From Omnitrophica WOR_2 bacterium RIFCSPHIGHO2_02_FULL_67_20 (GTDB lineage Bacteria > Omnitrophota > Gorgyraeia > Aquiviventales > Aquiviventaceae), in the NCBI GenBank assembly GCA_001805695.1, contig MHGT01000036.1, forward strand, positions 4,146 to 42,985: DNA of 38,840 nt. The letters run 5' to 3'. Below are positions 3,103-28,812 of the stretch, one piece after another. The translations under genes were made by a program, and so were the position numbers. Under the pieces are notes generated by a model that searched no databases, had not been told where the DNA came from, and saw only the letters and a list, made by a program, of their open reading frames with translations. Within the stretch, counting starts at the first letter, position 1; every line of letters starts with the position of its first letter.

Positions 3103-4152
3103 ATGAGCGTAACTGACTTTGAGCAAAGGAGAAAGGAAATCCTCGGGCTCATCATCGAGGCGTACGTATTGAGCGCCTCGCCGGTGGGCTCGGAGCTCGT
3201 GTCCAAGAAGCTCCGCTCAAGCCTGAGTTCAGCCACCATCCGCAACATCATGGTGGAGCTGGAAAAGTCCGGCTACCTGGAGCAGCCGCACACCTCCGCG
3301 GGGCGCGTGCCGACCGACCGGGGCTACCGCTTCTACGTGGACGCGGTGATGGATACGGCCCACCTGTCTCCGGACGAGCTGCGGCAGATTGAGGTACTCA
3401 TCCAGCCCCCGGAGCTTGATGTGGAACAGCTCCTCCAGCGCGCGAGCGGCGTCCTGGCCGGGCTGACCGAGCAGGCGGCCTTCGCCGTGTCGCCCACGGT
3501 GAAGCAGCGCACCGTGAAGCAGATTGAGTTGATGCCGCTCGGGGTGCGCAAAATCCTGTGCGTGCTGGTGGCCAACGAAGAGATGATCGCCTCGCACGTG
3601 GTCGAAATCGAAGAGCCCATGAGCCGCGACGAGGCGGCCGCGCTCGGCCGCTTCCTGAATACGGAGCTGGCCGGCCTCGCCTTCAGCGAACTGCTGAATT
3701 CGCTGGAGCGCCGGATGCTGGCCGAAAGCGACTCGTTCTACCACCTCGTGAAGCGGTCGCTCGGCATCCTCCAGCATGCGCTCTCGAGCGAGCCCAACGA
3801 CCGGCTGTATCTGGAGGGTGCCAGCTACGTCGTGGCCCAGCCGGAGTTCAGCCGCCACCCGCGCAAGGCGCATGAGCTCCTCAAGGGGCTCGATAACGAG
3901 CAGACGCTGCTGGAGCGCATCCGGCAGGACATCGCCCCCGAGGGGGTGCAGGTGCGCATCGGCCGCGAGGTGCAGCTGCCCGGGCTCGAGGAGTGCAGCT
4001 ACCTGACCGCGCCCTGCGCCATCGGCGAGGAGATCGTCGGCGGGCTCGGGGTGCTGGGGCCGAAGCGGATGTCGTACCGGCGCATGCGCGCGCTCGTCGA
4101 GGGCATGGCGCGCTGCGTGACGAACCTCCTGACCCAATGGGACACCCGATAA
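3103..4152 (+). CDS. hrcA: Heat-inducible transcription repressor HrcA
   Basis: N-terminal wHTH (ILGLIIEAYVLSASPVGSELVSKKL...SSATIRNIMVELEKSGYLEQPHTSAGRVPTDRGYRFYVD), ~349 aa, preceded by CIRCE and followed by grpE-dnaK. Confidence 0.95.
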   Translation: MSVTDFEQRRKEILGLIIEAYVLSASPVGSELVSKKLRSSLSSATIRNIMVELEKSGYLEQPHTSAGRVPTDRGYRFYVDAVMDTAHLSPDELRQIEVLIQPPELDVEQLLQRASGVLAGLTEQAAFAVSPTVKQRTVKQIELMPLGVRKILCVLVANEEMIASHVVEIEEPMSRDEAAALGRFLNTELAGLAFSELLNSLERRMLAESDSFYHLVKRSLGILQHALSSEPNDRLYLEGASYVVAQPEFSRHPRKAHELLKGLDNEQTLLERIRQDIAPEGVQVRIGREVQLPGLEECSYLTAPCAIGEEIVGGLGVLGPKRMSYRRMRALVEGMARCVTNLLTQWDTR

Positions 4153-4263
4153 GCACAGAAACACAGAAGGCGGAGAAGACGATGCACACCACAGAGACAC
4201 AGAACAGCAACATCACAACTGCTTCTCTCTGTGTTTCTGTGGATTTCTGTGTTTCTGTGGTGC
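4153..4263. repeat. Nested imperfect hairpin built from ~8-bp CACAGAAA-type units and their complement
   Basis: CACAGAAACACAGAA (4154-4168) is the exact reverse complement of TTCTGTGTTTCTGTG (4245-4259). The inner arm CCACAGAGACACAGAA pairs with TTCTCTCTGTGTTTCTGTGG. The element fills the hrcA-grpE spacer. Confidence 0.85.
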
Positions 4264-4270
4264 GAGTTGG

Positions 4271-4957
4271 ATGATGGGGCACAAGCACGAGGGCGACCGC
4301 GCCAAGCCGGTGCCCGAGCCGAAGCACCCCACCCACGGCGGCCTCGGCGACCCCGGCCCACAGGATGGGGGAGGGCCGGCCGGGGAGGCCGAAGGCCGAA
4401 GCACGCCGCGCGCAGGCAACACCGCTGAGTTGGAGCGGCTGACGCAGGAGGCGGCACAGGCCAAGGACCAGTACCTGCGGATGCTGGCCGACGTCGAGAA
4501 CACGAGGAAGCGGCTGCAGCGGGAGAAGGAGGAGTTTGCCCGGTTCGCGGCCGAGACGGTGGTGCGCGCCCTGCTGCCCATCCTGGACAGCCTGGACCAG
4601 GCGCTCGTCGCGGTGGACCGGAAGAGCGACGCGGATGCGGTCGTGAAGGGCGTCCACCTCATCCACCGCCAGCTGCATGGCGTCCTGGAGAAGGAGGGGG
4701 TCAGGCGGATCCCCACCGTCGGCGAGCCGTTCGACCCGCACCGGCATGAGGCGGTGGCCCAGGTCGAAGCGGACGGTATGGCGGATGACACGATTGTGGA
4801 AGAGGTGCAGGCGGGCTATACGATGAGCGGGAAAATGATTCGGCCCGCGATAGTGAAGGTGGCGAAAGCAAAGGAAGAGCGTTCTGGGTTGGGGGTTGAG
4901 GGTTCGGGGCAAATGCCCAGAACCCCGAACCCCGAACCCCGAACCGAGTCGGATTAA
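4271..4957 (+). CDS. grpE: Nucleotide exchange factor GrpE (C-terminal ~25 aa are translated from a repeat element)
   Basis: LRMLADVENTRKRLQREKEE and the C-terminal GYTMSGKMIRPAIVKV are typical GrpE. The ORF then reads through the 4881-4945 heptad hairpin. Confidence 0.93.
   Translation: MMGHKHEGDRAKPVPEPKHPTHGGLGDPGPQDGGGPAGEAEGRSTPRAGNTAELERLTQEAAQAKDQYLRMLADVENTRKRLQREKEEFARFAAETVVRALLPILDSLDQALVAVDRKSDADAVVKGVHLIHRQLHGVLEKEGVRRIPTVGEPFDPHRHEAVAQVEADGMADDTIVEEVQAGYTMSGKMIRPAIVKVAKAKEERSGLGVEGSGQMPRTPNPEPRTESD
4881..4945. repeat. Heptad-array hairpin: four GTTNNGG units, an AAAT loop, four CCCNGAA units
   Basis: GTTCTGG GTTGGGG GTTGAGG GTTCGGG GC-AAAT-G CCCAGAA CCCCGAA CCCCGAA CCCCGAA. 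The arms are ~25/30 complementary. Confidence 0.85.
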
Positions 4958-4969
4958 GGAGGTCTCTCA

Positions 4970-6850
4970 ATGGCAAAGGTGATCGGCATCGACTTGGGAA
5001 CATCGAACTCCGCCTGCGCCGTGATGGAGCAGGGCCGGCCGGCGATCATTCCGTCGGCGGAAGGCACGAGCGTAGGCGGCAAAGCGTTTCCGTCCTACGT
5101 GGCATTCACGAAGGACGGGCAGCTGCTGGTCGGGGAGCCGGCCCGCCGCCAGGCCGCGACCAACCCGGAGGGGACGGTGCAGGCGGCCAAGCGGAAGATG
5201 GGGACCGACCACGTGTACCGCATCTACGGCAAGGAGTACACGCCGCAGCAGATTTCCGCCTTCATCCTGCAGAAGGTGAAGCGGGACGCGGAGGCCCACC
5301 TCGGCGAGCCGGTGAAGGAAGTCGTCATCACCGTGCCCGCCTACTTCAACGACAACCAGCGCCAGGCGACCAAGGACGCGGGCGCGATCGCGGGCCTGGA
5401 GGTGCTGCGGATCGTGAACGAGCCGACCGCCGCGTGCCTCGCCTACGGCCTCGACAAGGCGGCGAAGGAGCAGAAGATCCTCGTCTTCGACCTGGGCGGC
5501 GGCACGCTCGATGTGACCATCATGGACATGGCCCAGGGGGTCTTCGAGGTCAAGGCGACGAGCGGCGATACCCAACTGGGCGGCACCGATATGGACCTCT
5601 CACTCGTGGACTACATCGCCTCCGAGTTCAAGAAGGAGACGGGGATCGACGCGCGCAACGACCGGGTGGCGGCCCAGCGCATCCGCGAGGCGGCGGAGAA
5701 GGCGAAGATCGAGCTCTCGAACGTCATCGAGACCGACCTGAACTTGCCCTTCATCACCGCGGATGCCTCCGGGCCGAAGCACCTCACCATGACGCTGACG
5801 CGCGCGACGCTCGAGCGGTTGATCGAACCCATCATCAGCCGCTGCCGCGGCCCGATCGAACGGGCGCTGGGCGACGCGAAGCTCAAGCCCTCGGACATCG
5901 ACCGCATCATCCTCGTCGGCGGCCCCACCCGCATGCCCATCGTTCAGCGGTTCGTCGAGGAGGCGGTCGGCAAGAAGGTGGAGCGGGGGGTGGACCCGAT
6001 GGAGTGCGTCGCGATGGGCGCCGCCGTCCAGGCGGGGATCATGAAGGGCGAAGTGAAGGACGTCCTCCTGCTCGACGTGACGCCGCTCTCGATGGGCATC
6101 GAGACGCTGGGCGGCGTGTTCACCAAGCTCATCGAGCGCAACACGACGGTGCCCACCCGCAAGAGCCAGGTCTTCTCGACGGCGGACGACAACCAGTCGG
6201 CGGTGACGATCCGGGTGCTCCAGGGCGAGCGGCCGATGGCCTCCGACAACGTGGAGCTGGGCCGGTTCGACCTGATCGGCATCCCGCCGGCACCCCGCGG
6301 CGTGCCGCAGGTCGAGGTGGCGTTCGACATCGACGCGAACGGCATCGTGCACGTCTCGGCCAAGGACCTCGGGACCGGCAAGGAGCAGTCGATCAAGATC
6401 ACCGCGCCCGAGAAGCTCTCGAAGGACGAGATCGAGAAGATGGTCAAGCAAGCGGAGCAGTTCGCCGAGGCGGATAAAAGCCGCAAGGAGCTGGCCGAGG
6501 CGAAGAACCAGGCGGACCAGCTCGTCTACGCGACCGAGAAGAGCCTGAAGGAGCTGGGCGACAAGGCGGGCCAGTCGGAGCGCCTGGCGATCGAGCAGGC
6601 AAGCCGCGACCTCAAGGACGCCCTCAAGTCGGACGACCTGGCGAAGATCAAGCGGGCGACCGAATCGCTCATGCAGGTTTCGCACAAGCTGGCGGAGGAA
6701 GTGTATAAGAAGGGGCAGGGGGCAAAGGGCGGGGGGCAGGGGGCGGGGGAACGCGGACCGCAGGCCCCGGAAGAGCCCGCCCAGCAGGCCGGCGGGAAGG
6801 ACGATAAGGTCGTGGACGCGGAGTTCAAGGTTAAGGATGAGGGGAAGTGA
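4970..6850 (+). CDS. dnaK: Molecular chaperone DnaK (Hsp70)
   Basis: [19 protein letters not shown] and VGGPTRMP motifs over the full length. An AAGGAGG RBS lies at 4956-4962. Confidence 0.98.
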
Positions 6851-6885
6851 TTCCCGTGGCGTCTGACACCGGTGGGAGGGGGTAC

Positions 6886-7314
6886 ATGAACCTGAAGGCA
6901 TGGGCGAAGGCGACGCTCGGGGCGTTCGTCGCGATCTTTGCGGCGGAGTTTCTCATCCACCACGTCTGGCTGGGCGGGTTCTACAAGGCGCACGCGGTCT
7001 GGTGGCGCCCCGCGGCGCAGATGGGGCCGATGATGCCGCTGATGTTCGCGGCTCAGCTCGTGCTAGCGGCACTCCTCACCGTTGTGTACGCCAAGGGCTA
7101 TGAGCCGGGCAAGGGCGGGGCGGGGCAGGGGTTCCGTTTCGGCGTCCTCATCGGGCTCCTGTTGATGCTCCCCTGCAGCCTGATGAACGCCGTCATCTAC
7201 CCGTACCCGATGTCGCTCATCGTCAACTGGCTCGTCGGCGGCCTGGCCGAGATTGCGCTTGCCGGCGCGGTGATTGGGGCGCTGTATAAGCCTGGGAAGC
7301 AACAGGGAGGTTAG
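6886..7314 (+). CDS. Small multi-pass membrane protein of unknown function (possibly DUF1761-like)
   Basis: Four hydrophobic segments. The ATG at 6886 is preceded by GGGAGGGGG. The gene lies between dnaK and dnaJ. The family assignment is from memory only. Confidence 0.55.
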   Translation: MNLKAWAKATLGAFVAIFAAEFLIHHVWLGGFYKAHAVWWRPAAQMGPMMPLMFAAQLVLAALLTVVYAKGYEPGKGGAGQGFRFGVLIGLLLMLPCSLMNAVIYPYPMSLIVNWLVGGLAEIALAGAVIGALYKPGKQQGG

Positions 7315-7425
7315 CGCGTTGGCGGGTTTGCGGGTTTGCGCGTTCGAGATCGACACCATGAGGACATCTCGGGAGAAAGCAGCCGGCGTATCCGCTTAGT
7401 TCCGGCAAGACTGATTTGAAACGTG

Positions 7426-8556
7426 ATGCCGACGACGAAACGCGACTACTACGAAATCCTCGGGGTGCAGAAGAGCGCCACGCTTGACGAGATCAAGCGG
7501 GCGTACCGCCAGCTGGCGCTGAAGCACCACCCGGACCGGGTGGGGGCTGAGCACAAGAAAGAGGCCGAGGAGAAGTTCAAGGAAATCTCCGAGGCCTACG
7601 CCGTCCTCTCCGATGCGCAGAAGCGCTCGGTCTATGACCAATACGGCCACACGCCAGGTTTTGACCAGCGCTACTCGACCGAGGACATCTTCCGCAACGC
7701 CGACTTCTCGAGCATCTTCGAGGACCTCGGCCTGGGCGGCTCGTTCTTCGAGGGCCTCTTTGGGGGCGGCGCTCTGGGGGCGGGGCGCGGCGCTCGCGGC
7801 TCGGACCTCGAGATGGAGCTGCCGCTCACGTTCGAGGAGGCCGCCCGCGGGACGACGAAGATGGTCACCGTGCCGCGGCGCGAGCTCTGCCACGAGTGCC
7901 GCGGCGAAGGCGGCGAGCGCGCGGCCTGCTCGACCTGCCGCGGGACCGGGCAGATCCGCCAGTCGGCCGGGTTCATGGTCATCGCGCGCACGTGCAACCG
8001 GTGCGGTGGGCAGGGCGGCACGGTCAAGAAAGCCTGCCCGGCCTGCCGGGGGAGCGGCCGCGTGGCGGTCGAGCGCCGGATTGAGGTCCGGGTGCCGGCC
8101 GGTATCGAGTCGGGCATGCGCCTCCGGCTGGCCGGCGAAGGCGAGGCGGGCCCGCGGGCCCGCGGCGATCTCTACGTCCACCTGACCGTCAAACCGCACC
8201 CGCTGTTCCGGCGGGAGGGGCCGCACCTGATCCTCGAGTACCCGGCGAGTATCGCGCAGGCCGCGCTGGGCGCCGAGGTGGAGCTGCCCACGATGAACGG
8301 CCGGGTGTCGATGAAGATCCCGCCGGGGACGCAGAGCGGCACGGTGTTCCGGGTGCGGGGCAAGGGGCTGCCCGACGTGCAGGAGCGGGGGGGGACGGGC
8401 GATCTCCTCGTGCGGGTGAGCGTCGAGACGCCAACGAACCTGACCGGCGCCCAGCGCAAGGCGTTCGAGGAGCTCTTCCGCGCGCTGGGCGACGACGCGC
8501 ACCCCGCGCGGAGGTCGTTCTTGGCGAAACTCAAGGAGTTGATCAAGCAGCGTTGA
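7426..8556 (+). CDS. dnaJ: Co-chaperone DnaJ
   Basis: J-domain DYYEILGV...HPD, a G/F-rich linker, and four CxxCxGxG zinc motifs ([32 protein letters not shown]). Confidence 0.97.
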
Positions 8557-8656
8557 GCCGGTTTTGCCCGTTATGCCGGTTGGCCCGTTAGAGCCGGTTC
8601 GGTACCAACGGGCTCAACGGGCTCAACGGGCCCAACGGGCTCAACGGGCCAACGGA
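8551..8656. repeat. 9-bp-unit palindromic array, GCCCGTT/GCCGGTT family, copy 1 of 4
   Basis: gagccggtt ttgcccgtt atgccggtt ggcccgtta gagccggtt cggtacc aacgggc tcaacgggc tcaacgggc ccaacgggc tcaacgggc caacgg. The dnaJ stop codon (8554-8556) lies inside the first unit. Confidence 0.9.
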
Positions 8657-8659
8657 AAC

Positions 8660-8950
8660 ATGCCGACGTACGAATACCAGTGCGCGAAGTGCAAGAAGCG
8701 CCGCGAGGCGTCCCAGTCCATCACCGCCAAGCCGCTCGTCAAGTGCCCGAAGTGCGGCGGCCGGCTCAAGCGCCTCATGGGCCGCGGCTCGGGCTTCCTG
8801 TTCAAGGGGAGCGGGTTCTACATCACCGACTACCGGAGCAAGAGCTACCAGGACGCCAAGAAGAAGGACCAAGACGCGAAGAAGAAGGACCAACCTGCCT
8901 CCTCTTCCTCTGACGGCAAAAGCTCCTCGTCCACCGGTAGCAAAGCGTAG
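8660..8950 (+). CDS. FmdB-family putative regulatory zinc-ribbon protein
   Basis: MPTYEYQCAKC...KCPKCGG is the CxxC-N-CxxC signature of this family. The QRAQRAQRA N-terminal extension in the ORF track is a translation of the repeat. Confidence 0.85.
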   Translation: MPTYEYQCAKCKKRREASQSITAKPLVKCPKCGGRLKRLMGRGSGFLFKGSGFYITDYRSKSYQDAKKKDQDAKKKDQPASSSSDGKSSSSTGSKA

Positions 8951-9002
8951 TGTATGGGGCTACGCGGCCGCCGCGTATGCGGCGGTCATCCTTGTCGGCT
9001 CG

Positions 9003-9305
9003 GTGGTCCCCGTTCCCGAGGGGCCGTCGGTCCCGTACCTTGACAAGGCAGTCCATCTCTGCGAGTATCTCCTCTTTGCCTGGCTGCTCGCGGGAGCGCT
9101 GCGCGCGGCCCGGTTGACCGAGCGGGAGTACGGGCGGCTTGCCTGGATGTACGCCACGAGCTACGGCCTTCTCATTGAGCTGATCCAGGGGCTCATCCCG
9201 TGGCGCTCGGCGGATTTGTGGGACGCGGCGGCGAATGCCCTCGGCGCGGCATTCGGGGTCTGGTTGGGACGACGCATTCCTCGCCGCTCCTCGGGCAGTC
9301 CATAG
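9003..9305 (+). CDS. VanZ-like membrane protein (N-terminus probably incomplete as called)
   Basis: LDKAVHLCEYLLFAWLL...GLLIELIQGLIPWRSADLWDAAANALGAAFG matches the VanZ pattern. An in-frame TM-like stretch (WGYAAAAYAAVILVGS) lies upstream of the first canonical start codon. Confidence 0.65.
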   Translation: MVPVPEGPSVPYLDKAVHLCEYLLFAWLLAGALRAARLTEREYGRLAWMYATSYGLLIELIQGLIPWRSADLWDAAANALGAAFGVWLGRRIPRRSSGSP

Positions 9306-9356
9306 TCTCCGCCAAAGGCGGACCCGCCTCCGGCGGGGACAGTCAACGGTCCACAG

Positions 9357-10013
9357 ATGCCACGACGCTGGAATCTGGTTGCTGCTGAGTTCGCGCACCA
9401 TCTGCCGTACACCCTTGTCGGCTCGCTCATCTCGATGGCGGTGGTGTGGTGGTTCGGGACTCAGCAGCTCGGAAACGGCCCTGCCGAGCTCCTCTTCCAG
9501 CAGGCGCGCGCGAGCTTCCACCTCTTCCACCCGCTTCACATCTGCCTCTCCGCCATCGCGACGACCTCGCTCTTCTGGCGCTACGAGCGCCATGTCCTCC
9601 GGGCGGCCTGGGTCGGCGCCTGGGGCACGATCCTCCCCTGCGGATTGAGCGATTACTTTTTCCCTTACGTGGGAGGACGGTTGTTCGGCCAGCCGATGCA
9701 GTGGCACGTCTGCATCGTGCAGGAGCCGCAGCTCTTCTTCTCGTTCCTCGCGCTGGGGATCCTCGGCGGCTTCTGGGCGGAGAGCCGCCTCCGGGGCAGC
9801 CACCTCTTCTCGCACGGGGCGCACGTCTTCGTCAGCAGCGCCGCGTCCTTGCTCTACCTAGTGTCCTTCGGGTTCACCTCCTGGATGACGGACGTCCAGG
9901 CCATCTTTCCCGTCTTCGCCATCATCGTGCTGGCGGTGTGGGTGCCTTGCTGCATCAGCGACGTCGTCATCCCTGTGGCGACCGCCCACAAGGGGCACAC
10001 CCACGGCTCCTGA
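9357..10013 (+). CDS. Hypothetical multi-pass membrane protein, His/Cys-rich
   Basis: Five to six hydrophobic segments, with HLFHPLH, PCG, PCC and a C-terminal HKGHTHGS. I recognise no family. Confidence 0.55.
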   Translation: MPRRWNLVAAEFAHHLPYTLVGSLISMAVVWWFGTQQLGNGPAELLFQQARASFHLFHPLHICLSAIATTSLFWRYERHVLRAAWVGAWGTILPCGLSDYFFPYVGGRLFGQPMQWHVCIVQEPQLFFSFLALGILGGFWAESRLRGSHLFSHGAHVFVSSAASLLYLVSFGFTSWMTDVQAIFPVFAIIVLAVWVPCCISDVVIPVATAHKGHTHGS

Positions 10014-10022
10014 GGCTCGCTG

Positions 10023-11252
10023 ATGGCGAAGATCCGCCCGTTCCGCGCGTTGCGCTATGACTCGTCGCGCTTTGGCGACCTCAGCCCCGTCCTGGCACCC
10101 CCGTATGACGTGATCGACGCCGCAGAGCAGGACCAGCTCTACGAGCGCTCGCCCCATAACATCGTCCGCCTGATCCTCGGCAAGCAGTCGGCCGCCGACA
10201 CCCCGGCAGACAACCGCTACACCCGCTCGGCCCTCGACTTCGCCGCATGGCAGGAGCAGGGCATCCTGCGCCGCGACCACGCCCCGGCGCTCTATCTCGT
10301 CGACCACCGCTTCCAGGCGGGCGGCGAGTCCCGGTCGCGCCTGGGCTTCCTCGCCCTCCTCGAATTCACCGAGCCCATCGAGCAAGCGGTCCTGCGCCAC
10401 GAGAAGACGCTCTCAGCACCCCGGGAGGACCGGACGAAGCTCCTGGACGCCGTGCCGGCGAGCCTCGAGCCGATCTTCCTGGTCTATCCCGATGAAGGGG
10501 GGGCCGTCCAGGCGCTGCTGCGGGACCGCTCGGTTCAAGCGCCGGACGCCGCCGGCTCGCTGGGCGGCGAGGACATCCGGCTCTGGGCGGTGACCGACCC
10601 GGAGCTCATCCGGCGCGTCAGCGAGGCACTCGAGCCGTCGGCGGTGCTGATCGCGGACGGCCACCACCGCTTCGAGGTCGCCTACAGCCGGCGCAGCCGC
10701 CATCGCGCGCTGATGGCCTACTTCGCGTCGATGGAGGAGCCCTCGCTCATCGTGCGGCCCATCCACCGCGTTGTTTCCTCGGGGCGCCGGCTCGATGTGG
10801 AAGCCTCGGGCGGCCTGTGCGCGGCTGCCCCGGTTCCCGACCTGGCGGCCCTGCTGCGCTGGCTCGACGATGAGCGCGCTCCCGGCTGTTTCGGCTGGTC
10901 GGACGGGCGGGCGTTCTACCGGTTGACGGTTCCGCCGGACCGGCTGGAGCGGTGGCTCAAGACGTCGCCGGTGCCAAAGCCGGTCGCCCGCCTCGACGTC
11001 TCGCTCCTGCACGGCCTCCTCCTGCCGGGCCTCGGCTTCCACGGGGCCACGATCCGGTACGCGGCCGATGCCCGCAAGGCGATCGGGGAGCTGGGCGGCA
11101 GCGGGTCGGTGTGGCTGCTGCGCGGTATTCCGCTCGCCGACGTCTACGACGTCGCCGCCCAGGGGCTGCTACTCCCGCCGAAATCCACATATTTCTACCC
11201 GAAGGTCCCCTCCGGGCTGGCCATCAATCTCCTCGGGGGCCAGACCCCCTGA
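10023..11252 (+). CDS. DUF1015 family protein
   Basis: The N-terminus MAKIRPFRALRY...VLAPPYDVI...ERSPHNIVRLILG and the internal IADGHHRFE are characteristic of DUF1015. Confidence 0.85.
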   Translation: MAKIRPFRALRYDSSRFGDLSPVLAPPYDVIDAAEQDQLYERSPHNIVRLILGKQSAADTPADNRYTRSALDFAAWQEQGILRRDHAPALYLVDHRFQAGGESRSRLGFLALLEFTEPIEQAVLRHEKTLSAPREDRTKLLDAVPASLEPIFLVYPDEGGAVQALLRDRSVQAPDAAGSLGGEDIRLWAVTDPELIRRVSEALEPSAVLIADGHHRFEVAYSRRSRHRALMAYFASMEEPSLIVRPIHRVVSSGRRLDVEASGGLCAAAPVPDLAALLRWLDDERAPGCFGWSDGRAFYRLTVPPDRLERWLKTSPVPKPVARLDVSLLHGLLLPGLGFHGATIRYAADARKAIGELGGSGSVWLLRGIPLADVYDVAAQGLLLPPKSTYFYPKVPSGLAINLLGGQTP

Positions 11253-11259
11253 GCCGGGG

Positions 11260-11295
11260 CGTCAATTGACGAGCCGTATCACCCTGTGCTAGCAT
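11260..11295 (+). promoter_or_regulatory. Candidate accD promoter with an overlapping 12-bp perfect palindrome
   Basis: CGTCAATTGACG (11260-11271) contains TTGACG. After an 18-nt spacer comes TAGCAT (11290-11295). Confidence 0.35.
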
Positions 11296-11376
11296 AACTC
11301 TTTCCGTGTTTCCCCCAACGAGTTACCGCGCAGTCGGTTGGTCGACGGCAAGCCTCACGAGGTGTGATCAGGTGAT

Positions 11377-11491
11377 CCCACCACCTGGCTGTCCCGCCAT
11401 TGGCGGGGCAGATTCCAATGGAAGAGCTGAGGGTGAACATGCAGTGTGACAATCTGCGGGCTGCCGTTGGCAGCCCCAGCCAGGTGGTGGG
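11377..11491 (+). promoter_or_regulatory. Structured accD 5' leader (predicted four-way junction closing at the start codon)
   Basis: P1 is CCCACCACCTGGCTG (11377-11391) paired with CAGCCAGGTGGTGGG (11477-11491), a perfect 15 bp. P2 is CCCGCC-ATT-GGCGGG (11393-11407). P3 is GCAGATT (11408-14) paired with AATCTGC (11451-57). P4 is GGGCTGCC-GTT-GGCAGCCC (11458-11476). The ATG is at 11492. Confidence 0.5.
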
Positions 11492-12333
11492 ATGAAGCTC
11501 TTCAGCAAGCGCCATCCCAGCCTCGCGCGCCGGTCCAAGCGCGAGATCCCCACCGGCCTCTGGACGAAGTGCGAGTCCTGCGGCCAGCTCATCTACAACA
11601 AGGCGCTGGAGGAGAACCTCCGCGTCTGCCCCAAGTGCGACTTCCACTTCCCCCTCGCCGCGGCCCAGCGCCTTAAGCTCACGCTGGATGAGGGGACGTT
11701 CGAGGAGTGGGATGCGGAGCTTGCCCCCGTCGACCCCCTGAACTTCGCCATCCCCAGGCCGTACGCCGAGAAGGTCGTGGAGGAACAGCGCGCCTGCGGC
11801 ATGCCCGACGCCTGCGTCACCGGCAAAGGGCTCCTGGATGGGCACGAGGTGGTGATCGGTATCACCGACTCCCGCTTCATGATGGGGTCGATGGGCTCGG
11901 TGGTGGGGGAGCGCCTCACGCGCGCCATCGAGCGCGCCACCGAGCAGCGGCTGCCGCTCATCATCGTGTCCGGCTCCGGCGGCGGCGCGCGGATGCAGGA
12001 GGGGGCGCTGAGCCTCATGCAGATGGCGAAGACCTCGGCCGCGCTCATGCGCTACGACGAGCAGGGGGGCTGCTTCCTCTCCGTCCTCACGCACCCCACG
12101 ATGGCCGGGGTGCTCGCCAGCTTCGCGACGCTGGGCGACCTCATCATCGCCGAGCCCAAGGCGCTCATCGGCTTCACCGGCCCCCGCGTCATCGAGCAGA
12201 CCATCCGGCAGAAGCTGCCGGAGGGGTTCCAGCGCTCGGAGTTCCTCCTGGAGCACGGCCTCATCGACCTCATCGCGCACCGCCGGGAGATGAAGGCCGT
12301 GCTGGCCAGGCTCCTGAGCTACTACGGGCGCTG

Positions 12334-12334
<1 letters not shown>
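11492..12334 (+). CDS. accD: Acetyl-CoA carboxylase carboxyltransferase beta subunit
   Basis: N-terminal zinc finger CESCGQLIY...CPKCDFHF followed by a carboxyltransferase domain ([18 protein letters not shown]). Confidence 0.95.
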
Positions 12335-13437
<1,103 letters not shown>

Positions 13438-13544
13438 TTCGTTAAGCCCGTTAAGCCCGTTGGGCCCGTTGGGCCCGTTGAGTCCGTTCGGACGGGCCGC
13501 CAACCGGCTCAACGGGCGCAACCGGCCTAACGGGCTCAACCGGG
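13438..13544. repeat. 9-bp-unit palindromic array, GCCCGTT family, copy 2 of 4
   Basis: gcccgttaa gcccgttaa?gcccgttgg gcccgttgg gcccgttga gtccgttcg gacgggccg ccaaccggc tcaacgggc gcaaccggc ctaacgggc tcaaccggg. It ends 1 nt before the next ATG (13546). Confidence 0.9.
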
Positions 13545-13545
13545 T

Positions 13546-15006: not shown

Positions 15007-15028
15007 TGGGAGCTTTTGCGCAGCGTGT

Positions 15029-15099
15029 ATTTCGGATTTCGGATTTGGGATTTCGGATCCAAAGGTTTCGTCCGCAATCCGTAATCCGCAATCCGAAAT
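15029..15099. repeat. Heptad-array hairpin: 4 x ATTTCGG-type units, a loop, 4 x CCGNAAT units
   Basis: ATTTCGG ATTTCGG ATTTGGG ATTTCGG (15029-15056), then CCGCAAT CCGTAAT CCGCAAT CCGAAAT (15072-15099). Confidence 0.88.
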
Positions 15100-15112
15100 T
15101 CCAGGCGTCTCC

Positions 15113-16390
15113 ATGGTAATTGTCACCTCTCTCTGGCTCCTCGCCATGGTCTCCGGCCTCTGCTGGGCGCGCCGCTACACGGCGGCGCTGAGCGCCGTGA
15201 CCGCCCTGGCGTTCATCGCCACCGAGGCCGAGACGCTGCTCGCATGGACCGGTTGGCTCCAGCTGGCGGCGTTGGGTGCGACACCCTGGCTGCTGGCGGC
15301 CCAGCGCCTGCAGGATGCGCTGACCGTCAGGCGGCTGCATGATGAGGAGGCCGCGCGCCTCGCCAAGCTCTCCGAGGCGGCCCGGTCGCTCCTCTCGCTG
15401 CAGCGCTCGACCGACCAGATGGAGGCGCAGATCAGCCAGATCACCGATCTCTACCACGTGACGAAGGAGACCTCGCGGGCGATGCACGTGAAGGAGCTCT
15501 TCGCCGCGTCGCTGGATATCGCGCCCCGCCTGCTCAGCGCCAGCGGCCTGCGCCTCATCGACCTCTCCGGCGAAGAGCCCCGCGTCCTGCGGGCCGCGCG
15601 CGGGGCGGACGGGCGCATGCGGGAGGAACAGGCCGACGGGCCGCTCGATGCGGAGCGCGCCATCATCCAGGAGGCGCTGGCGTCGGCCCCCCAGGCGGCG
15701 GGCGGGCGGACGGGGCCATCGGGCCTGGCCTGGGCGCCGCTGTGGCGTGAACAACACGCGGTGGGAGTGCTGGTCGCCGACGGGCTGCCGGATGACCAAA
15801 TCCGGACGCTGACGATCGTCGCGAACCAGCTTTCGCTCCAGCTGGCCCGCGTCACGCTCTACCAGCGGGTGGAGTCGCTCGCCGTCACGGATGCGCTCAC
15901 CGGCCTCTTCGTGCGCCGGCACTTCATGGAGCGCTCCAGGGAGGAGCTGACGCGCTCCAAGCGCCACGGCCTGGCCTGCTCGCTGCTCATGGTCGACCTC
16001 GACCACTTCAAGCAGAAGAACGACACGTACGGCCACCTGGTCGGCGACGTCGTCCTCCGCGACGTGGCGCGGCTGCTGGCGCACAACCTCCGCGAGGTGG
16101 ACCTCATCGCCCGCTACGGCGGCGAAGAACTCGTGCTCATGCTCATCGAAACCGGGCCGGCGCAGGCGCTGCCGATCGCCCAGCGGCTCGCTCAGCTCGT
16201 CGCGGTGCACCCGATCCGCGCCTACGATGAGCTCCTGACGCAGACGGTCAGCATGGGGTTGGCCGCCTTCCCGGACCACGGCGACACGCTGGAAACGCTG
16301 ATTGAGCGGGCGGACCAGGCGCTGTACGCGGCGAAGCAGGCGGGGAGGAATCGTGTCGTTGTGTACTCGGAAAAAACGCAGGGGGTGTAG
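15113..16390 (+). CDS. Membrane-anchored GGDEF diguanylate cyclase (GGEEL variant with an RxxD I-site)
   Basis: DLDHFKQKNDTYGHLVGD, REVDLIARYGGEEL (RxxD five residues before the GGEEL motif), and an N-terminal hydrophobic region. Confidence 0.9.
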   Translation: MVIVTSLWLLAMVSGLCWARRYTAALSAVTALAFIATEAETLLAWTGWLQLAALGATPWLLAAQRLQDALTVRRLHDEEAARLAKLSEAARSLLSLQRSTDQMEAQISQITDLYHVTKETSRAMHVKELFAASLDIAPRLLSASGLRLIDLSGEEPRVLRAARGADGRMREEQADGPLDAERAIIQEALASAPQAAGGRTGPSGLAWAPLWREQHAVGVLVADGLPDDQIRTLTIVANQLSLQLARVTLYQRVESLAVTDALTGLFVRRHFMERSREELTRSKRHGLACSLLMVDLDHFKQKNDTYGHLVGDVVLRDVARLLAHNLREVDLIARYGGEELVLMLIETGPAQALPIAQRLAQLVAVHPIRAYDELLTQTVSMGLAAFPDHGDTLETLIERADQALYAAKQAGRNRVVVYSEKTQGV

Positions 16391-16455
16391 CGTGTACCGT
16401 TTACCGTGTACCGTCAAGAGCGATGAATCAGGTTTTCACGGTACACCGTACACGG
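16391..16455. repeat. Heptad-array hairpin: GTGTACC-type units and their complement GGTACAC
   Basis: GTGTACC GTTTACC GTGTACC GT (16392-16414), a loop, then AC GGTACAC CGTACAC GG (16438-16455). It runs directly into the 112-nt element. Confidence 0.8.
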
Positions 16456-16568
16456 TTCACCCCGTACCACGGTGGACGCCCCGCCCGTCAGGGCGGGGAG
16501 GAATGGCGTGGTCGTCCCGAAGGGTCGTTCCAGAGGCCACGGCCGTTAGGCCGTGGTACGGGGTTCAC
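16455..16568 (+). repeat. Conserved ~112-nt structured palindromic element, copy A (possible ncRNA, cis-regulatory RNA or MITE)
   Basis: About 80% identical by eye to 22887-22997. Terminal complement ACCCCGTACCACGG / CCGTGGTACGGGGT. Hairpins CCCCGCCC-GTCA-GGGCGGGG and CCACGGCC-GTTA-GGCCGTGG. Confidence 0.7.
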
Positions 16569-16585
16569 GGTACACGCACGATGTG

Positions 16586-17548
16586 ATGAGCGCGACGCCG
16601 TGGGCAGTTGGGGTGGATTTTGGCGGCACGACGGTGAAGGTGGGGCTGGTGACGCCCGCCGGCCGCGTGGCCGCGGTCCGCGTGCTCCCGACCGCGGAGC
16701 TCCGCCGTCCGGCGCAGTTCGCCGACGCGGTGAGCCAGGCGGTCCGGTCACTAGTCCAAGAACGCGGCCTGCGCATGAGCCGGATCGCGGGAGTCGGCAT
16801 CGGCGCGCCCGGGCCGGTGGACGCGGCGCGCGGCGTCATCCACTCGATGGTGAACGTGCCGGGGTGGCGCGAGGTTCCGCTGGCGCGGCGGCTCGCGCGG
16901 CGGCTTCAGTGCCGGTGCGTCGTGGATAACGACGCCAACTGCTTTGCGCTGGCCGAGTGGCGCTTCGGCGCGGGACGTGGCGCCGATGACCTTATCTGCC
17001 TCACGCTCGGGACGGGCCTCGGCGGCGGACTGATCCTGGACGGCGCGCTCTACCGCGGAGCCTCGGGTGCTGCGGGGGAGCCCGGCCACATGGTCATCGA
17101 CCCCCGCGGGCCGCGCTGCGGCTGCGGGCGGCGCGGGTGCCTGGAGGCGCTCGTGGGTACAGCGGCCATTGTGGCGCTCGGGCGGCCGGCCCTTCGGCGA
17201 TCGGCCCACCTGCGGCGGCTGGTTCGCGCGCACGGTGGACGGTTGATGCCCCGTCTGATTGGCCGGGCGGCTCGCGCGGGGGACCCGCACGCGCGGGCGG
17301 TCTGGGCCGAGATCGGGGCGCGCCTTGGCGTCGGCGTGGCGAACCTCGTGAACCTGTGCAACCCCGAGCGCGTGGTGATCGGCGGCGGGATCGCGAATAA
17401 CTGGTCGCTGTTCGCGCCGGCGATGCGCGTGACCGTGCGCCGCGAGGCGATGGCGGGGAGCGCGCGCGCGGTCCGGATCGTGCGCGCCCGGCTCGGAGAC
17501 TACGCTGGCATTGTCGGAGCGGCTGTGCTAGTTTGGGAAGACCGTTAG
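16586..17548 (+). CDS. ROK-family glucokinase/sugar kinase
   Basis: The N-terminal AVGVDFGGTTVKVGL and the zinc motif GHMVIDPRGPRCGCGRRGCLE are typical ROK features. A GTG at 16583 is an alternative start. Confidence 0.88.
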   Translation: MSATPWAVGVDFGGTTVKVGLVTPAGRVAAVRVLPTAELRRPAQFADAVSQAVRSLVQERGLRMSRIAGVGIGAPGPVDAARGVIHSMVNVPGWREVPLARRLARRLQCRCVVDNDANCFALAEWRFGAGRGADDLICLTLGTGLGGGLILDGALYRGASGAAGEPGHMVIDPRGPRCGCGRRGCLEALVGTAAIVALGRPALRRSAHLRRLVRAHGGRLMPRLIGRAARAGDPHARAVWAEIGARLGVGVANLVNLCNPERVVIGGGIANNWSLFAPAMRVTVRREAMAGSARAVRIVRARLGDYAGIVGAAVLVWEDR

Positions 17549-17634
17549 GTCCGTTATGCCGGTTGCGCCCGTTGAGCCGGTTGGCAGTCCGTGCGAACGG
17601 GCTCAACGGGCCTAACGGGCTCAACGGGCCAACG
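17541..17634. repeat. 9-bp-unit palindromic array, GCCCGTT family, copy 3 of 4
   Basis: accgttagg tccgttatg ccggttgcg cccgttgag ccggttgg cagtccgtgcg aacgggc tcaacgggc ctaacgggc tcaacgggc caacgag. The ROK stop codon (17546-17548) lies in the first unit. Confidence 0.9.
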
Positions 17635-17648
17635 AGACGGAGTCCCGA

Positions 17649-28710: not shown

Positions 28711-28711
28711 T

Positions 28712-28806
28712 GCGTTGGGCCCGTTGTGCCGGTTGAGCCTGTTGGAAGGTTGAATACCCTCTCACCAAACGGGCCTAACGGACAAAACCGGCCTAACGGG
28801 TCAAAC
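28712..28806. repeat. 9-bp-unit palindromic array, GCCCGTT family, copy 4 of 4 (more degenerate)
   Basis: gcgttgg gcccgttgt gccggttga gcctgttgg ... caaacgggc ctaacggac aaaaccggc ctaacgggt. Confidence 0.8.
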
Positions 28807-28812
28807 CCGCAG

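What the first reader, a model, noticed from the sequence alone, without database searches (positions are those of the whole stretch)
8551..8656. 9-bp GCCCGTT/AACGGGC palindromic array present four times, with upstream stop codons inside the first unit
Copies at 8551-8656, 13438-13544, 17541-17634 and 28712-28806 share the unit (N2)GCC(C/G)GTT on the left arm and AAC(G/C)GGC(N2) on the right arm, with strict 9-bp phasing.

The dnaJ TGA (8554-8556, in cgtTGAgcc) and the ROK kinase TAG (17546-17548, in ccgTTAGgt) lie within the first unit. The next gene's ATG follows copy 2 by one nucleotide (13546).

The element therefore either carries its own stop codon when it inserts or has been captured as the gene end. 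The 9-bp (three-codon) period also explains the QRAQRAQRA and [12 protein letters not shown] pseudo-peptides in the ORF track.
Basis: seen in the sequence. Interest (0 to 1): 0.65.

Follow-up and report, generated by a model that had tools for sequence, protein, structure and literature searches.

The report
Nine-base periodic palindromic intergenic repeat
A roughly 100-base hairpin-forming repeat, built from tandem 9-base units, fills the gap between one gene's stop codon and the next gene's start four times in this window and well over a hundred times in uncultured bacteria labelled as several different phyla; it is a new variant of the small palindromic repeats known from other bacteria, and what it does is still unproven.

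Summary
Four 95-106 nt elements have a left arm of (GCCSGTT+NN)n and a right arm of (NN+AACSGGC)n. The motif occurs 26 times against 0.14 expected. As RNA the elements fold at -49 to -75 kcal/mol.

The window is from a high-GC Candidatus Omnitrophica-like bacterium. It holds at least four more hairpins with tandem-repeat arms, built from other 7- and 8-nt units.

The 9-mer family is not private to this genome. Their records are titled Desulfobacterales, Nitrospirae, Omnitrophota and others. Viral contigs gave none.

The arm order is always GCCSGTT then AACSGGC (18:0). The array usually starts at or in the upstream stop codon, in phase with the unit, and ends 7-20 nt before the next start codon.

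Opposed arms show no wobble asymmetry and no covariation, so the motif is conserved rather than the base pairs. Copies 2 and 3 are inverted copies of each other. Relatives carry other unit families at the same gaps, and one has a nested insertion.

Best reading: a dispersed REPIN/STRR-like repeat element that can supply the end of the upstream gene. Its copying mechanism and RNA-level role are inferred, not shown.

The parts
8551..8655 (.). Copy 1 of the 9-nt periodic palindrome. Left arm 8551-8599 has units spaced 9, 9, 8 and 10 nt. Loop cggtacc is 8600-8606. Right arm 8607-8655 is (AACGGGCnn) x5 plus aacgg. The first unit contains the last dnaJ codon CGT (8551-8553) and the stop TGA (8554-8556). 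The ATG of the Zn-ribbon gene is at 8660.
   Evidence: RNA fold -68.6 kcal/mol, z -5.7. Orthologous shorter or longer copies occur in L252, L127, L253 and L254.
13438..13544 (.). Copy 2. Left arm 13438-13488, loop 13489-13500, right arm 13501-13544. It starts directly after the ABC-ATPase stop TAG (13435-13437), which is in phase as NN+G of a degenerate unit. It ends 1 nt before the ATG at 13546.
   Evidence: Fold -74.5 kcal/mol, z -6.4. Its reverse complement is 91% identical to copy 3 over 79 nt, loop included.
17540..17634 (.). Copy 3. Left arm 17540-17582, loop 17583-17595, right arm 17596-17634. The first unit GACCGTTAG is the last two ROK codons plus the stop TAG (17546-17548). The ATG of the transaldolase-family gene is at 17649.
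   Evidence: Fold -73.0 kcal/mol, z -7.6. ROK tail compared with relatives.
28711..28808 (.). Copy 4, the most degenerate. Left arm 28711-28743, central 24 nt 28744-28767, right arm 28768-28808. It starts directly after the epimerase stop TAG (28708-28710). The next ATG is at 28813.
   Evidence: Fold -48.8 kcal/mol, z -3.1.
4153..4262 (.). Related architecture with another unit: an 8-nt periodic hairpin (CACAGAAA... / TTCTGTGT...). It fills the gap from the hrcA stop (4150-4152) to 8 nt before the grpE ATG (4271).
   Evidence: (pair I25).
4884..4948 (.). 7-nt periodic hairpin (GGGTTSG / CCCCGAA). It lies inside the 3' tail of the grpE reading frame, whose stop is at 4955-4957.
   Evidence: (I11). 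GrpE tails compared.
7309..7344 (+). One-sided 8-nt array (GGTTTGCG). Its first unit GGTTAGCG contains the last codon GGT and the stop TAG of the upstream membrane-protein gene (6847..7314).
15029..15099 (.). 7-nt periodic hairpin (ATTTCGG / TCCGMAA) between the GAF-GGDEF gene and the next GGDEF gene.
   Evidence: (I8).
16385..16461 (.). 7-nt periodic hairpin (GTGTACC / GGTACAC). Its first unit GTGTAGC contains the GGDEF gene's stop TAG (16388-16390). A second inverted repeat follows at 16447-16577.
   Evidence: (I10, I13, I17).

Best explanation
The four arrays are copies of a dispersed, non-coding palindromic repeat element.

Anatomy (shown): each arm is a tandem array of a 9-bp unit with a 7-bp core GCCSGTT and 2 variable bases, mostly GA, TA, AG or AA. 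The two arms always face each other in the order GCCSGTT...AACSGGC.

Spread (partly shown, mechanism inferred): the family occurs on contigs labelled as several bacterial phyla. It spreads or is homogenised at the DNA level, by transposition or gene conversion through an unidentified agent. It settles in the short spacer between a stop codon and the next start codon. Arrays change length by adding or losing units.

Stop codons (shown as a pattern, cause inferred): about half of the units read T-NN as a stop codon in one frame. The outermost unit can therefore overlap or replace the last one or two codons and the stop of the upstream gene without harm.

RNA level (inferred): the element is transcribed inside the operon mRNA, where it should fold into a very stable hairpin with the stop codon at its 5' foot and the initiation region at its 3' foot. 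The likely consequences are protection or processing of the mRNA, and making translation of the downstream gene depend on a ribosome terminating upstream.

It is one of several families with the same architecture but different 7-9 nt units in this lineage.
For: Real repeat family:
- 26 motif hits against 0.14 expected.
They gave 127 non-redundant hairpin copies on contigs of 44-69% GC.

Copying between sites:
- The reverse complement of copy 2 matches copy 3 at 91% over 79 nt, including the loop, the S pattern and the NN pairs.
- L253 carries a second hairpin (GCCTGC/GCAGGC) nested inside a unit of the left arm.
- The orthologous gaps of copies 2 and 3 hold hairpins of other unit families in L127 and, at the copy-2 gap, L129. 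Those gaps hold no periodic hairpin in L132.
- The dnaJ copy is retained with 4 to 5.5 units per arm in relatives at 80-88% DnaJ identity.

Motif-level rather than pair-level conservation:
- Arm mismatches that would be G-U on the sense strand number 158, against 159 on the antisense strand, plus 532 transversions.
- Opposed S positions are complementary 101 times against 127.6 expected. Opposed NN pairs are complementary 24 times against 17.7 expected.

Fixed polarity: 18 pairs in the order left-then-right against 0 in the reverse order, in loci selected only for a one-strand array.

Position:
- Stop codons lie in phase with the unit.
- 81% of elements abut a long reading frame's end, against 25% of random positions.
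- The last core lies 7-20 nt before the ATG, with a flank consensus yAACGRAnnATG.

Stop donation:
- 51% of NN pairs form stops.
- K-X-R* with CGT-TRR occurs only where the element is present.
- 4 of 28 window genes end in an NGT codon, against 1.1% NGT usage overall.

Hairpin strength: -49 to -75 kcal/mol, z -3.1 to -7.6. In the predicted folds of copies 2-4 the initiation region pairs with the stop-codon region.
Against: - No transposase, target-site duplication or conserved terminal tag was found, so mobility is inferred from copy patterns only. Gene conversion between existing hairpins could also produce the copy 2 / copy 3 similarity.
- Strains 98.9-99.96% identical to the window show no array-length change or insertion polymorphism.
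- The many unit families per genome are not obviously explained by one mobilising enzyme.
- The absence of wobble asymmetry and covariation gives no positive support for a selected RNA structure.
- In copy 1 the initiation region is not sequestered in the predicted fold.
- Gene contexts rest on heuristic ORF calls, and several were wrong on inspection.
- The DnaJ K-X-R correlation may reflect few independent events. The neighbour-joining tree carries no support values.
Confidence: 0.6

Rival explanations
1. The arrays are operator-like binding sites on double-stranded DNA. A sequence-specific protein, such as a global regulator, nucleoid-associated protein or ribbon-helix-helix-type repressor, binds contiguous 9-bp units. 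The two inverted arrays bracket a control region, and the hairpin potential is a by-product.
For: - The motif is conserved without pair covariation or strand-specific wobble.
- Spacing is strict at about 9 bp and the inverted polarity is fixed.
- A minority of copies have arms 60-170 nt apart around A+T-rich centres. Some contain TATAAT-like sequence, for example L077, L101, L116 and L224.
- The authors of the Geobacter metallireducens genome paper interpreted paired opposite-strand arrays of tandem 7-9 nt repeats this way (PMC2700814).
- From my own knowledge: MetJ (8-bp boxes) and the omega repressor (7-bp heptads) bind contiguous short tandem units.
Against: - Most copies sit between a stop and a start codon inside runs of co-directional housekeeping genes, with loops of only 8-24 nt and no room for a promoter.
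- The arrays overlap stop codons and the last sense codons.
- One genome holds many unrelated unit families with the same architecture, which would need many cognate proteins.
- The same core on contigs labelled as several phyla would need a shared regulator.
Confidence: 0.15
2. The hairpins evolved in place as functional RNA structures. Candidate roles are U-tract-less terminators or attenuators, RNase III sites, 3'-end stabilisers, or devices that couple translation of neighbouring genes. Periodicity would be a side effect of growth by slippage, and no mobility would be involved.
For: - The predicted stability is very high.
- Hairpins fill the stop-to-start spacer exactly, for the 9-mer family. 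Other unit families do the same in the window and relatives.
- The first units of other families also contain the stop codon: GTGTAGC at 16385 and GGTTAGCG at 7309. This fits local seeding from the gene end.
- Cyanobacterial STRR hairpins have been proposed to stabilise transcripts or couple translation (PMC2670836).
- Termination-reinitiation needs very short distances (abstract of PMC10666635), which a hairpin could restore in space.
Against: - The same 7-nt core, spacing and NN bias recur on contigs labelled as several phyla and over 44-69% GC. Independent local origin does not predict this.
- Copies 2 and 3 share loop and variable positions in inverted orientation.
- There is no excess of sense-strand G-U pairs (158 against 159) and no compensatory change.
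- No T-tract follows the stems and no Rfam family matches.
- The reverse arm order, which would be equally stable, is never seen.
Confidence: 0.15
3. The elements are REPINs in the strict sense: pairs of inverted REP sequences mobilised by a RAYT (IS200/IS605-type HUH tyrosine transposase) encoded elsewhere in the genome. This is the first reader's suggestion, and it is a specific sub-case of the best explanation.
For: - Size is a median 82 nt from first to last core, with two inverted halves, an extragenic location downstream of genes and many copies. These fit the general description of REPs and REPINs (PMC3733652; PMC3116915 listed).
- No target-site duplication was found. From my own knowledge, this is typical of IS200/IS605-type transposition.
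Against: - The terminal GTAG or CGTC tags that define the two REP super-families are not enriched: GTAG in 5 of 127 against 4.2 expected, CGTC in 5 against 14 expected.
- Each half is a tandem array of non-palindromic 9-mers, not a 20-40 bp stem-loop.
- No RAYT gene is present in the window (Pfam list for 7.6-28.4 kb), though the rest of the genome was not available.
Confidence: 0.12
4. The arrays are chance low-complexity sequence, misassembly, or disguised coding repeats.
For: - Single-strand GCCSGTT arrays do occur in many loci from Actinobacteria and others, without an inverted partner (172 unpaired arrays). I did not check whether these lie within genes.
- Long spurious ORFs run through the arms.
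Against: - 26 hits against 0.14 expected.
- Six independent assemblies carry the same region with unchanged arrays.
- The elements lie between well-supported genes whose ends match their orthologues.
- The arrays carry stop codons at most units.
Confidence: 0.01

Closest known systems
REP sequences and REPINs (repetitive extragenic palindromes; REP doublets forming hairpins) of Enterobacteria and Pseudomonas
   Same: Short, high-copy, imperfectly palindromic, extragenic and mostly downstream of coding regions. They are plausibly transcribed as RNA hairpins, are occasionally found inside genes, have no target duplication, and vary in family between related genomes (PMC3733652; here).
   Different: There is no GTAG or CGTC tag. 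The arms are tandem arrays of a 9-nt unit rather than a 20-40 bp stem-loop with a 5-13 bp stem. The stem is 30-45 bp. The first unit is in phase with the stop codon. The family sits on contigs labelled as several phyla. No RAYT link has been shown.
STRR (short tandemly repeated repetitive) heptamer sequences of heterocyst-forming cyanobacteria
   Same: Tandem short units in intergenic regions that can pair with an inverted array to form a hairpin between co-transcribed genes such as hupS-hupL. Their function is unknown, with proposals of transcript stability or translational coupling (PMC2670836). The window also has 7-nt families.
   Different: The unit here is 9 nt with a different sequence. 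The host is Omnitrophica-like, with Desulfobacterales and Nitrospirae among other carriers, not cyanobacteria. The paired-arm architecture is obligatory and polar. Stop-codon phasing was not mentioned in the one STRR passage I read (PMC2670836).
Paired tandem-repeat 'global regulator sites' (classes 1-3) of Geobacter metallireducens
   Same: Three to five tandem repeats of 7-9 nt (GTTGCTYN, TCTCCGTS[Y], MTYCTGA). They occur as pairs on opposite strands at variable distance, in tens of intergenic locations, with several unit families in one genome and absence from a sister species (PMC2700814). This is architecturally the nearest described case.
   Different: The unit sequences differ. Those were interpreted, without experiment, as IHF/HU-type binding sites. 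The passages I read mention no hairpin reading, stop-codon relation or cross-phylum distribution.
TAACTGA heptamer direct repeats of marine Beggiatoaceae, cyanobacteria and Bacteroidetes
   Same: A short-unit tandem array shared by distant phyla, which suggests horizontal spread with no evident mechanism. It lies within a few nucleotides of start codons, and a post-transcriptional role has been proposed (PMC4679880).
   Different: Those are almost all direct repeats without an inverted partner (169 direct sets and one indirect). Units are 7 nt and lie upstream of starts rather than spanning stop to start.
Operator arrays of contiguous short units bound by ribbon-helix-helix proteins (MetJ 8-bp met boxes, omega 7-bp heptads); from my own knowledge, not tested here
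   Same: Contiguous 7-9 bp units with a conserved core, in direct and inverted arrangements.
   Different: Those lie at promoters of a few operons, not in stop-to-start spacers at many loci. No cognate protein is known here.

Membership tests
REP / REPIN | Terminal GTAG or CGTC tetranucleotide at one end, outside the stem | tested here: not met
   GTAG lies within 20 nt of the left end in 5 of 127 elements (4.2 expected). CGTC does so in 5 of 127 (14.1 expected).
REP / REPIN | Unit is a 20-40 bp imperfect palindrome (stem 5-13 bp); a REPIN is two such units in inverted orientation | tested here: not met
   Each half is a tandem array of 3-6 non-palindromic 9-nt units. The whole element forms one 30-45 bp stem. 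Feature definition taken from PMC3733652.
REP / REPIN | High-copy, extragenic, predominantly downstream of coding regions | tested here: met
   4 copies in 38.8 kb. 81% of elements abut a long frame's 3' end, against 25% at random.
REP / REPIN | Cognate RAYT gene flanked by the repeats | not testable with these tools
   Only 39 kb of this genome is available. No such gene appears in the window's Pfam list.
MITE | Terminal inverted repeats plus target-site duplication | tested here: inconclusive
   Inverted ends are present. Flanking direct repeats of 4 nt or more number 7 observed against 7.8 expected from permuted flanks. The element ends are fuzzy, so short duplications cannot be excluded.
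Cyanobacterial STRR | Tandem heptanucleotide units | tested here: not met
   This family has 9-nt units (spacing 9 nt 377 times, 8 nt 54 times). Separate 7-nt families do exist in the window.
Cyanobacterial STRR | Intergenic arrays able to form hairpins between co-transcribed genes | tested here: met
   STRR description in PMC2670836.
Cyanobacterial STRR | Host is a heterocyst-forming cyanobacterium | tested here: not met
   The DnaJ relatives that carry a source name are all called Candidatus Omnitrophica. Other carriers are titled Desulfobacterales, Nitrospirae and Omnitrophota.
G. metallireducens paired tandem-repeat sites | 3-5 tandem 7-9 nt units occurring as pairs on opposite strands at variable distance in intergenic DNA | tested here: met
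   Median 4 units per arm, loops 0-60 nt, and a minority 60-190 nt apart. Definition from PMC2700814.
G. metallireducens paired tandem-repeat sites | Unit consensus GTTGCTYN, TCTCCGTS[Y] or MTYCTGA | tested here: not met
   The unit here is GCCSGTT+NN.
Intrinsic (Rho-independent) terminator | G+C-rich hairpin followed by a T-tract | tested here: not met
   No terminator-like site falls at any element in 4000-18000. The right arms run into the next start codon.
Any Rfam RNA family | Covariance-model match at the gathering score | tested here: not met
   0 matches in the whole window.

The most novel reading that the evidence does not exclude
The elements are self-propagating 'junction cassettes' shared across phyla. 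Each palindrome overwrites the whole stop-to-start spacer. It gives the upstream gene its last one or two codons and its stop, and gives the downstream gene its initiation context. An unknown sequence-specific machinery builds and keeps tandem 7-9 nt units symmetric on both arms. That machinery would also account for the many unit families with identical architecture in one genome, and for the same units appearing in the low-complexity tails of GrpE and DnaK.
Probability: 0.2. Interest if true: 0.8.

Novelty: new variant of a known kind. Interest (0 to 1): 0.6.

Why it matters
Small palindromic repeats are common in bacterial genomes, but their origin and function are still largely open. This family adds three things:
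- a defined internal grammar (7+2 nt units, fixed arm polarity);
- a distribution over contigs labelled as several phyla of mostly uncultured bacteria;
- a physical link to gene ends, with the stop codon inside the first unit and the start codon just past the last.

If the elements do supply stop codons and gate downstream initiation, they are a mobile way of rewiring gene junctions in compact genomes.

They also matter practically. They create long spurious ORFs (the QRAQRA / LSPLSP pseudo-peptides). They can shift predicted gene ends and starts. They would also be expected to complicate metagenome assembly and binning.

Several unit families share one architecture in a single lineage, so the question of how such repeats arise can be addressed by comparative genomics.

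Tried and rejected
- Rfam at gathering scores gave no match in the window.
- The consensus terminator scan found no T-tract terminators at the elements.
- REP tags GTAG and CGTC are not enriched.
- No target-site duplications beyond chance.
- The viral contig scan with the hairpin pattern gave 0 hits.
- Near-identical strains (L001-L006) show no unit-number polymorphism, only two loop SNPs in L005.
- I tested for an RNA-strand signature (G-U against A-C mismatches) and for covariation of the S and NN positions. Both were negative.
- I tested whether the PF05635 gene (23S rRNA intervening-sequence protein, bAvd-like) flanked by inverted arrays in L129 recurs near elements. tblastn against 1.8 Mb of fetched loci found only L129 and L130.
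- I looked for genes between widely separated arms. Only short A+T-rich non-coding centres turned up.
- Six literature searches (repeat names, exact sequences, taxon names) found no description of this family.
- The automatic divergent-gene calls ('-+') were largely wrong on inspection. L153, for example, is a dnaK-element-dnaJ junction. I therefore give no firm count of divergent contexts.
- One contig (that of P0005) could not be read because the sample file was too large.
Full report
**1. The observation**

The four arrays are at the stated coordinates. Each has a left arm of GCCSGTT cores separated by two variable bases, a short loop, and a right arm of the complementary AACSGGC cores. Coordinates are listed under 'parts'.

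Two adjacent units with up to one mismatch occur 26 times in the window, against 0.14 expected from dinucleotide-preserving shuffles. Tandem Repeats Finder and the inverted-repeat finder recover the same arms.

Phasing is predominantly 9 nt but not strict. Copy 1 has an 8-nt and a 10-nt unit. In the wider data set the spacing is 9 nt 377 times and 8 nt 54 times.

The dnaJ TGA, the ROK TAG and the ATG at 13546 are as described. In copies 2 and 4 the upstream TAG also lies in register with the array, as NN plus the G of a degenerate first unit. All four copies therefore begin at the stop codon.

As RNA the four elements fold at -68.6, -74.5, -73.0 and -48.8 kcal/mol, with z-scores of -5.7, -6.4, -7.6 and -3.1. 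The opposite strand folds about as well.

**2. Setting**

The window is about 67% G+C, and essentially every gene is on the + strand. It carries hrcA, grpE, dnaK, dnaJ, a Zn-ribbon gene, accD, an ABC ATPase, two GGDEF genes, ROK, a transaldolase-family gene, lptD and sugar-nucleotide genes.

The same sequence occurs in six independent metagenome assemblies at 98.9-99.96% identity. The DnaJ relatives that carry a source name are called Candidatus Omnitrophica.

The 9-mer arrays are not the only periodic hairpins in the window:
- 4153-4262, 8-nt unit;
- 4884-4948, 7-nt unit, inside the grpE reading-frame tail;
- 15029-15099, 7-nt unit;
- 16385-16461, 7-nt unit;
- 7309-7344, a one-sided 8-nt array.
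These show the same construction. In two of them the first unit again contains the upstream stop codon: GTGTAGC at 16385 and GGTTAGCG at 7309.

**3. Distribution**

- Most hits are one-strand arrays without an inverted partner, many of them in Actinobacteria. I did not check whether these are coding.
- 18 are paired hairpin-type arrays. They come from MAGs titled Desulfobacterales or 'delta proteobacterium', one titled Nitrospirae, one Omnitrophota and one unclassified.

Viral contigs gave nothing.

After removing near-duplicates there are 127 elements on contigs of 44-69% G+C. Median values are 4 units per arm, a 13-nt loop and 82 nt from first to last core.

In loci selected only for a one-strand array, the order GCCSGTT...AACSGGC occurs 18 times and the reverse order never.

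**4. Anatomy**

The variable pair is far from random: GA 127, TA 60, AG 45 and AA 32 of 400, with C rare. With the preceding T, 51% of units read TGA, TAA or TAG. A further 15% give TAG with the next G. The bias is the same on both arms when each is read outward-in.

I aligned each left arm to the reverse complement of its right arm.
- Mismatches that would be G-U on the sense transcript (158) equal those that would be G-U on the antisense (159). Transversions dominate (532).
- Opposed S positions are complementary less often than chance (101 against 127.6 expected).
- Opposed NN pairs barely exceed chance (24 against 17.7, permutation 0.06).
- Unit numbers on the two arms are only weakly correlated (rho 0.28).

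What is conserved is therefore the motif, its spacing and its polarity, not the individual base pairs.

**5. Relation to genes**

With heuristic ORF calls, the gap between the upstream in-frame stop and the first perfect core peaks at -9, 0 and +9, with a second phase at -10, -1 and +8. The stop is thus in register with the unit. The last perfect core lies mostly 7-20 nt before the next start, with a recurrent flank yAACGRAnn(n)ATG.

81% of elements have an open frame of at least 80 codons ending within -20 to +30 nt of an arm, against 25% of random positions.

Automatic context calls were 90 co-directional, 19 convergent and 16 divergent. Several 'divergent' calls proved on inspection to be co-directional; L153, for example, is dnaK-element-dnaJ. 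True divergent contexts are probably rare, but I give no firm number.

No T-tract follows the stems, and no Rfam family matches.

**6. Were native stops replaced?**

*DnaJ.* Its tail was compared in 120 homologues and in ten contigs.
- The five that carry the GCCSGTT element after dnaJ (the window, L252, L127, L253, L254; 80-100% DnaJ identity) all end K-X-R*, with the codons CGT-TRR running into the array.
- The five without it (L129, L131, L132, L255, L256) end K-R* or K-K*, one residue shorter. They carry another unit family or no hairpin. L132 has a 14-nt spacer with a normal GGGAG.
- A neighbour-joining tree without support values places two K-N-R proteins (P0013 and P0019) outside the main K-X-R clade. 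The element was confirmed for P0013 (L254); the P0019 contig was not fetched. The number of independent events is therefore uncertain.

*ROK.* It ends E-D-R*, with GAC CGT TAG one mismatch from a full unit. The tail length is the same as in L129 and L132, which end Q-S* and Q-P*.

*ABC ATPase.* It ends A-I-V* in all five genomes whatever follows, so there the native stop is kept and the array starts right after it.

*Codon usage.* In the window CGT is 4.6% of Arg codons and NGT codons are 1.1% of all codons. Yet 4 of 28 genes end in NGT. Three of them run into arrays. The fourth, the transaldolase-family gene, ends AAC CGT TAA, which looks like a solitary unit.

The simplest reading is that the outermost unit extends into the gene as far as selection allows, and can supply the final codon(s) and stop. 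This is inferred, not proven.

**7. Dynamics**

- The reverse complement of copy 2 is 91% identical to copy 3 over 79 nt. The match includes the loop, the C/G pattern of the cores and the NN pairs, and the direct alignment is poorer. These two copies, 4 kb apart, share a recent origin in opposite orientation.
- The dnaJ copy is retained across relatives, with 4 to 5.5 units per arm and different loops.
- In L253 a second hairpin (GCCTGC/GCAGGC type, about 60 nt) sits inside one unit of its left arm.
- The orthologous gaps of copies 2 and 3 hold hairpins of other units in L127 (AGTGGCnn, CGCAGATT). The copy-2 gap holds a different inverted repeat in L129. L132 has no periodic hairpin at either gap.
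- Each relative has its own dominant family: TCAGAAG in L129, and CAGACNN, AAAGCACA and GGGGYRN in L131.
- Strains above 98.9% identity show no length change.
- No target-site duplication and no GTAG/CGTC tag were found.

**8. Interpretation**

The data fit a dispersed repeat element that is copied or homogenised at the DNA level and tolerated in stop-to-start spacers. It has a stop-rich unit that lets it abut or overlap gene ends.

Its agent is unknown. A RAYT-type enzyme is possible but unsupported, and gene conversion between hairpins cannot be excluded.

Because almost all copies lie inside co-directional gene runs, they should be transcribed. A stem of -50 to -75 kcal/mol with the stop at its 5' foot would be partly opened by a terminating ribosome. 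In the predicted folds of copies 2-4, but not copy 1, the start region lies at the 3' foot. This is the classical arrangement for translational coupling by unmasking, and such a stem would also impede 3' exonucleases. These RNA-level effects are inferred.

The main rival is a DNA operator array. It is favoured by motif-level conservation and by the minority of copies with A+T-rich centres. It is disfavoured by the position inside operons, by the overlap with coding ends, and by the multiplicity of unit families.

**9. Comparison with known systems**

- *G. metallireducens paired sites.* These opposite-strand arrays of tandem 7-9 nt repeats are architecturally the nearest described case (PMC2700814).
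- *Cyanobacterial STRR heptamer hairpins.* They are the closest in proposed function (PMC2670836).
- *REP/REPIN elements.* They are the closest in genomic behaviour, but their defining tags and unit structure are not met (PMC3733652).
- *TAACTGA direct repeats.* They show a similar cross-phylum spread of a short unit (PMC4679880).

I found no description of the GCCSGTT family or of stop-codon phasing. The searchable library does not cover most subscription journals.

**10. Verdict**

The element is a new variant of the known class of small palindromic intergenic repeats. It has an unusual periodic grammar, a fixed polarity, a spread over contigs labelled as several phyla, and a systematic link to stop and start codons. 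Mechanism and function remain to be shown.

**Limits**

- Gene contexts are heuristic.
- Taxonomy rests on record titles and source names.
- Only 39 kb of the source genome was available.

Noticed in passing
window 4153-4262, 4884-4948, 7309-7344, 15029-15099, 16385-16461: There are four further hairpins whose arms are tandem 7- or 8-nt units, plus one one-sided 8-nt array, all in gaps between co-directional genes. The phenomenon is therefore broader than the 9-mer family. Two of them have the upstream stop codon inside their first unit.
   Followed up: partly
window 4271-4957 (grpE) and 6712-6749 (dnaK); L129 6034-6102 and 8327-8360; L131 7333-7363 and 9251-9285: Tandem 7-nt units also occur inside the low-complexity C-terminal tails of GrpE and DnaK and are translated. 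In L129 the unit is the same TCAGAAG that builds that genome's intergenic hairpins. In the window the whole 7-nt hairpin lies within the grpE reading frame.
   Followed up: partly
L129 6080-6581: The two inverted TCAGAAG/CTTCTGA arrays flank a complete 133-aa gene (Pfam PF05635 23S_rRNA_IVP, weak bAvd) inserted between grpE and dnaK. This looks like a periodic hairpin with a cargo gene in its loop. No similar gene was found by tblastn in the other 1.8 Mb of fetched loci.
   Followed up: partly
L253 1288-1454: A second hairpin of a different unit type (GCCTGC.../...GCAGGC, about 60 nt) is nested inside one unit of the left arm of the GCCCGTT element after dnaJ. This is direct evidence for insertion of one hairpin into another.
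   Followed up: partly
window 11375-11493; L127 6313-6430 and 7540-7625: This is a different repeat. A 17-nt perfect inverted repeat, ATCCCACCACCTGGCTG / CAGCCAGGTGGTGGGAT, brackets about 85 nt upstream of accD. Related copies occur twice in the relative L127. A sigma-70-like promoter match lies just before it at 11266-11295.
   Followed up: no
window 17649-18371 (3' end): The transaldolase-family gene ends AAC CGT TAA, a unit-like sequence with the rare CGT codon. Only a 14-nt spacer follows and no array. It may be a solitary remnant unit.
   Followed up: no
window 16447-16577: A second inverted repeat (CGTACACGGTTCACCCCGTACCACGG / CCGTGGTACGGGGTTCACGGTACACG) encloses a small G+C-rich stem (ccccgcccgtcagggcgggg). 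It lies directly after the 7-nt hairpin and upstream of ROK, making this a compound structured spacer.
   Followed up: no
L132 19030-19335; also L129 20282-20847 and L131 19060-19164: Another repeat family of about 95 nt (...cttcctcgccaccccgcc...ggcggggcccccggctcggtcgg) occurs three times in tandem between ROK and the transaldolase gene in L132. An apparent extra copy of the transaldolase 5' end lies between the repeats.
   Followed up: no
L219 2480-2660 and about ten other metagenome loci (L181, L194, L203, L209, L211, L214, L223, L234, L240, L248): Here the 9-mer hairpin sits inside a larger conserved inverted repeat (CCCACATTATTC...GAATAATGTGGG) that recurs on many contigs. It is a composite or nested element.
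   Followed up: partly
L077, L101, L116, L224, L033, L080 (coordinates): A minority of 9-mer elements have arms 60-170 nt apart around non-conserved A+T-rich centres (G+C 0.25-0.49), some with TATAAT-like sequence. They could be promoters bracketed by arrays, or cargo.
   Followed up: partly
window 1-38840: Essentially all of the roughly 35 predicted genes are on the + strand, and none of the periodic hairpins lies beyond 28.8 kb, in the sugar-nucleotide / glycosyltransferase part of the window.
   Followed up: no
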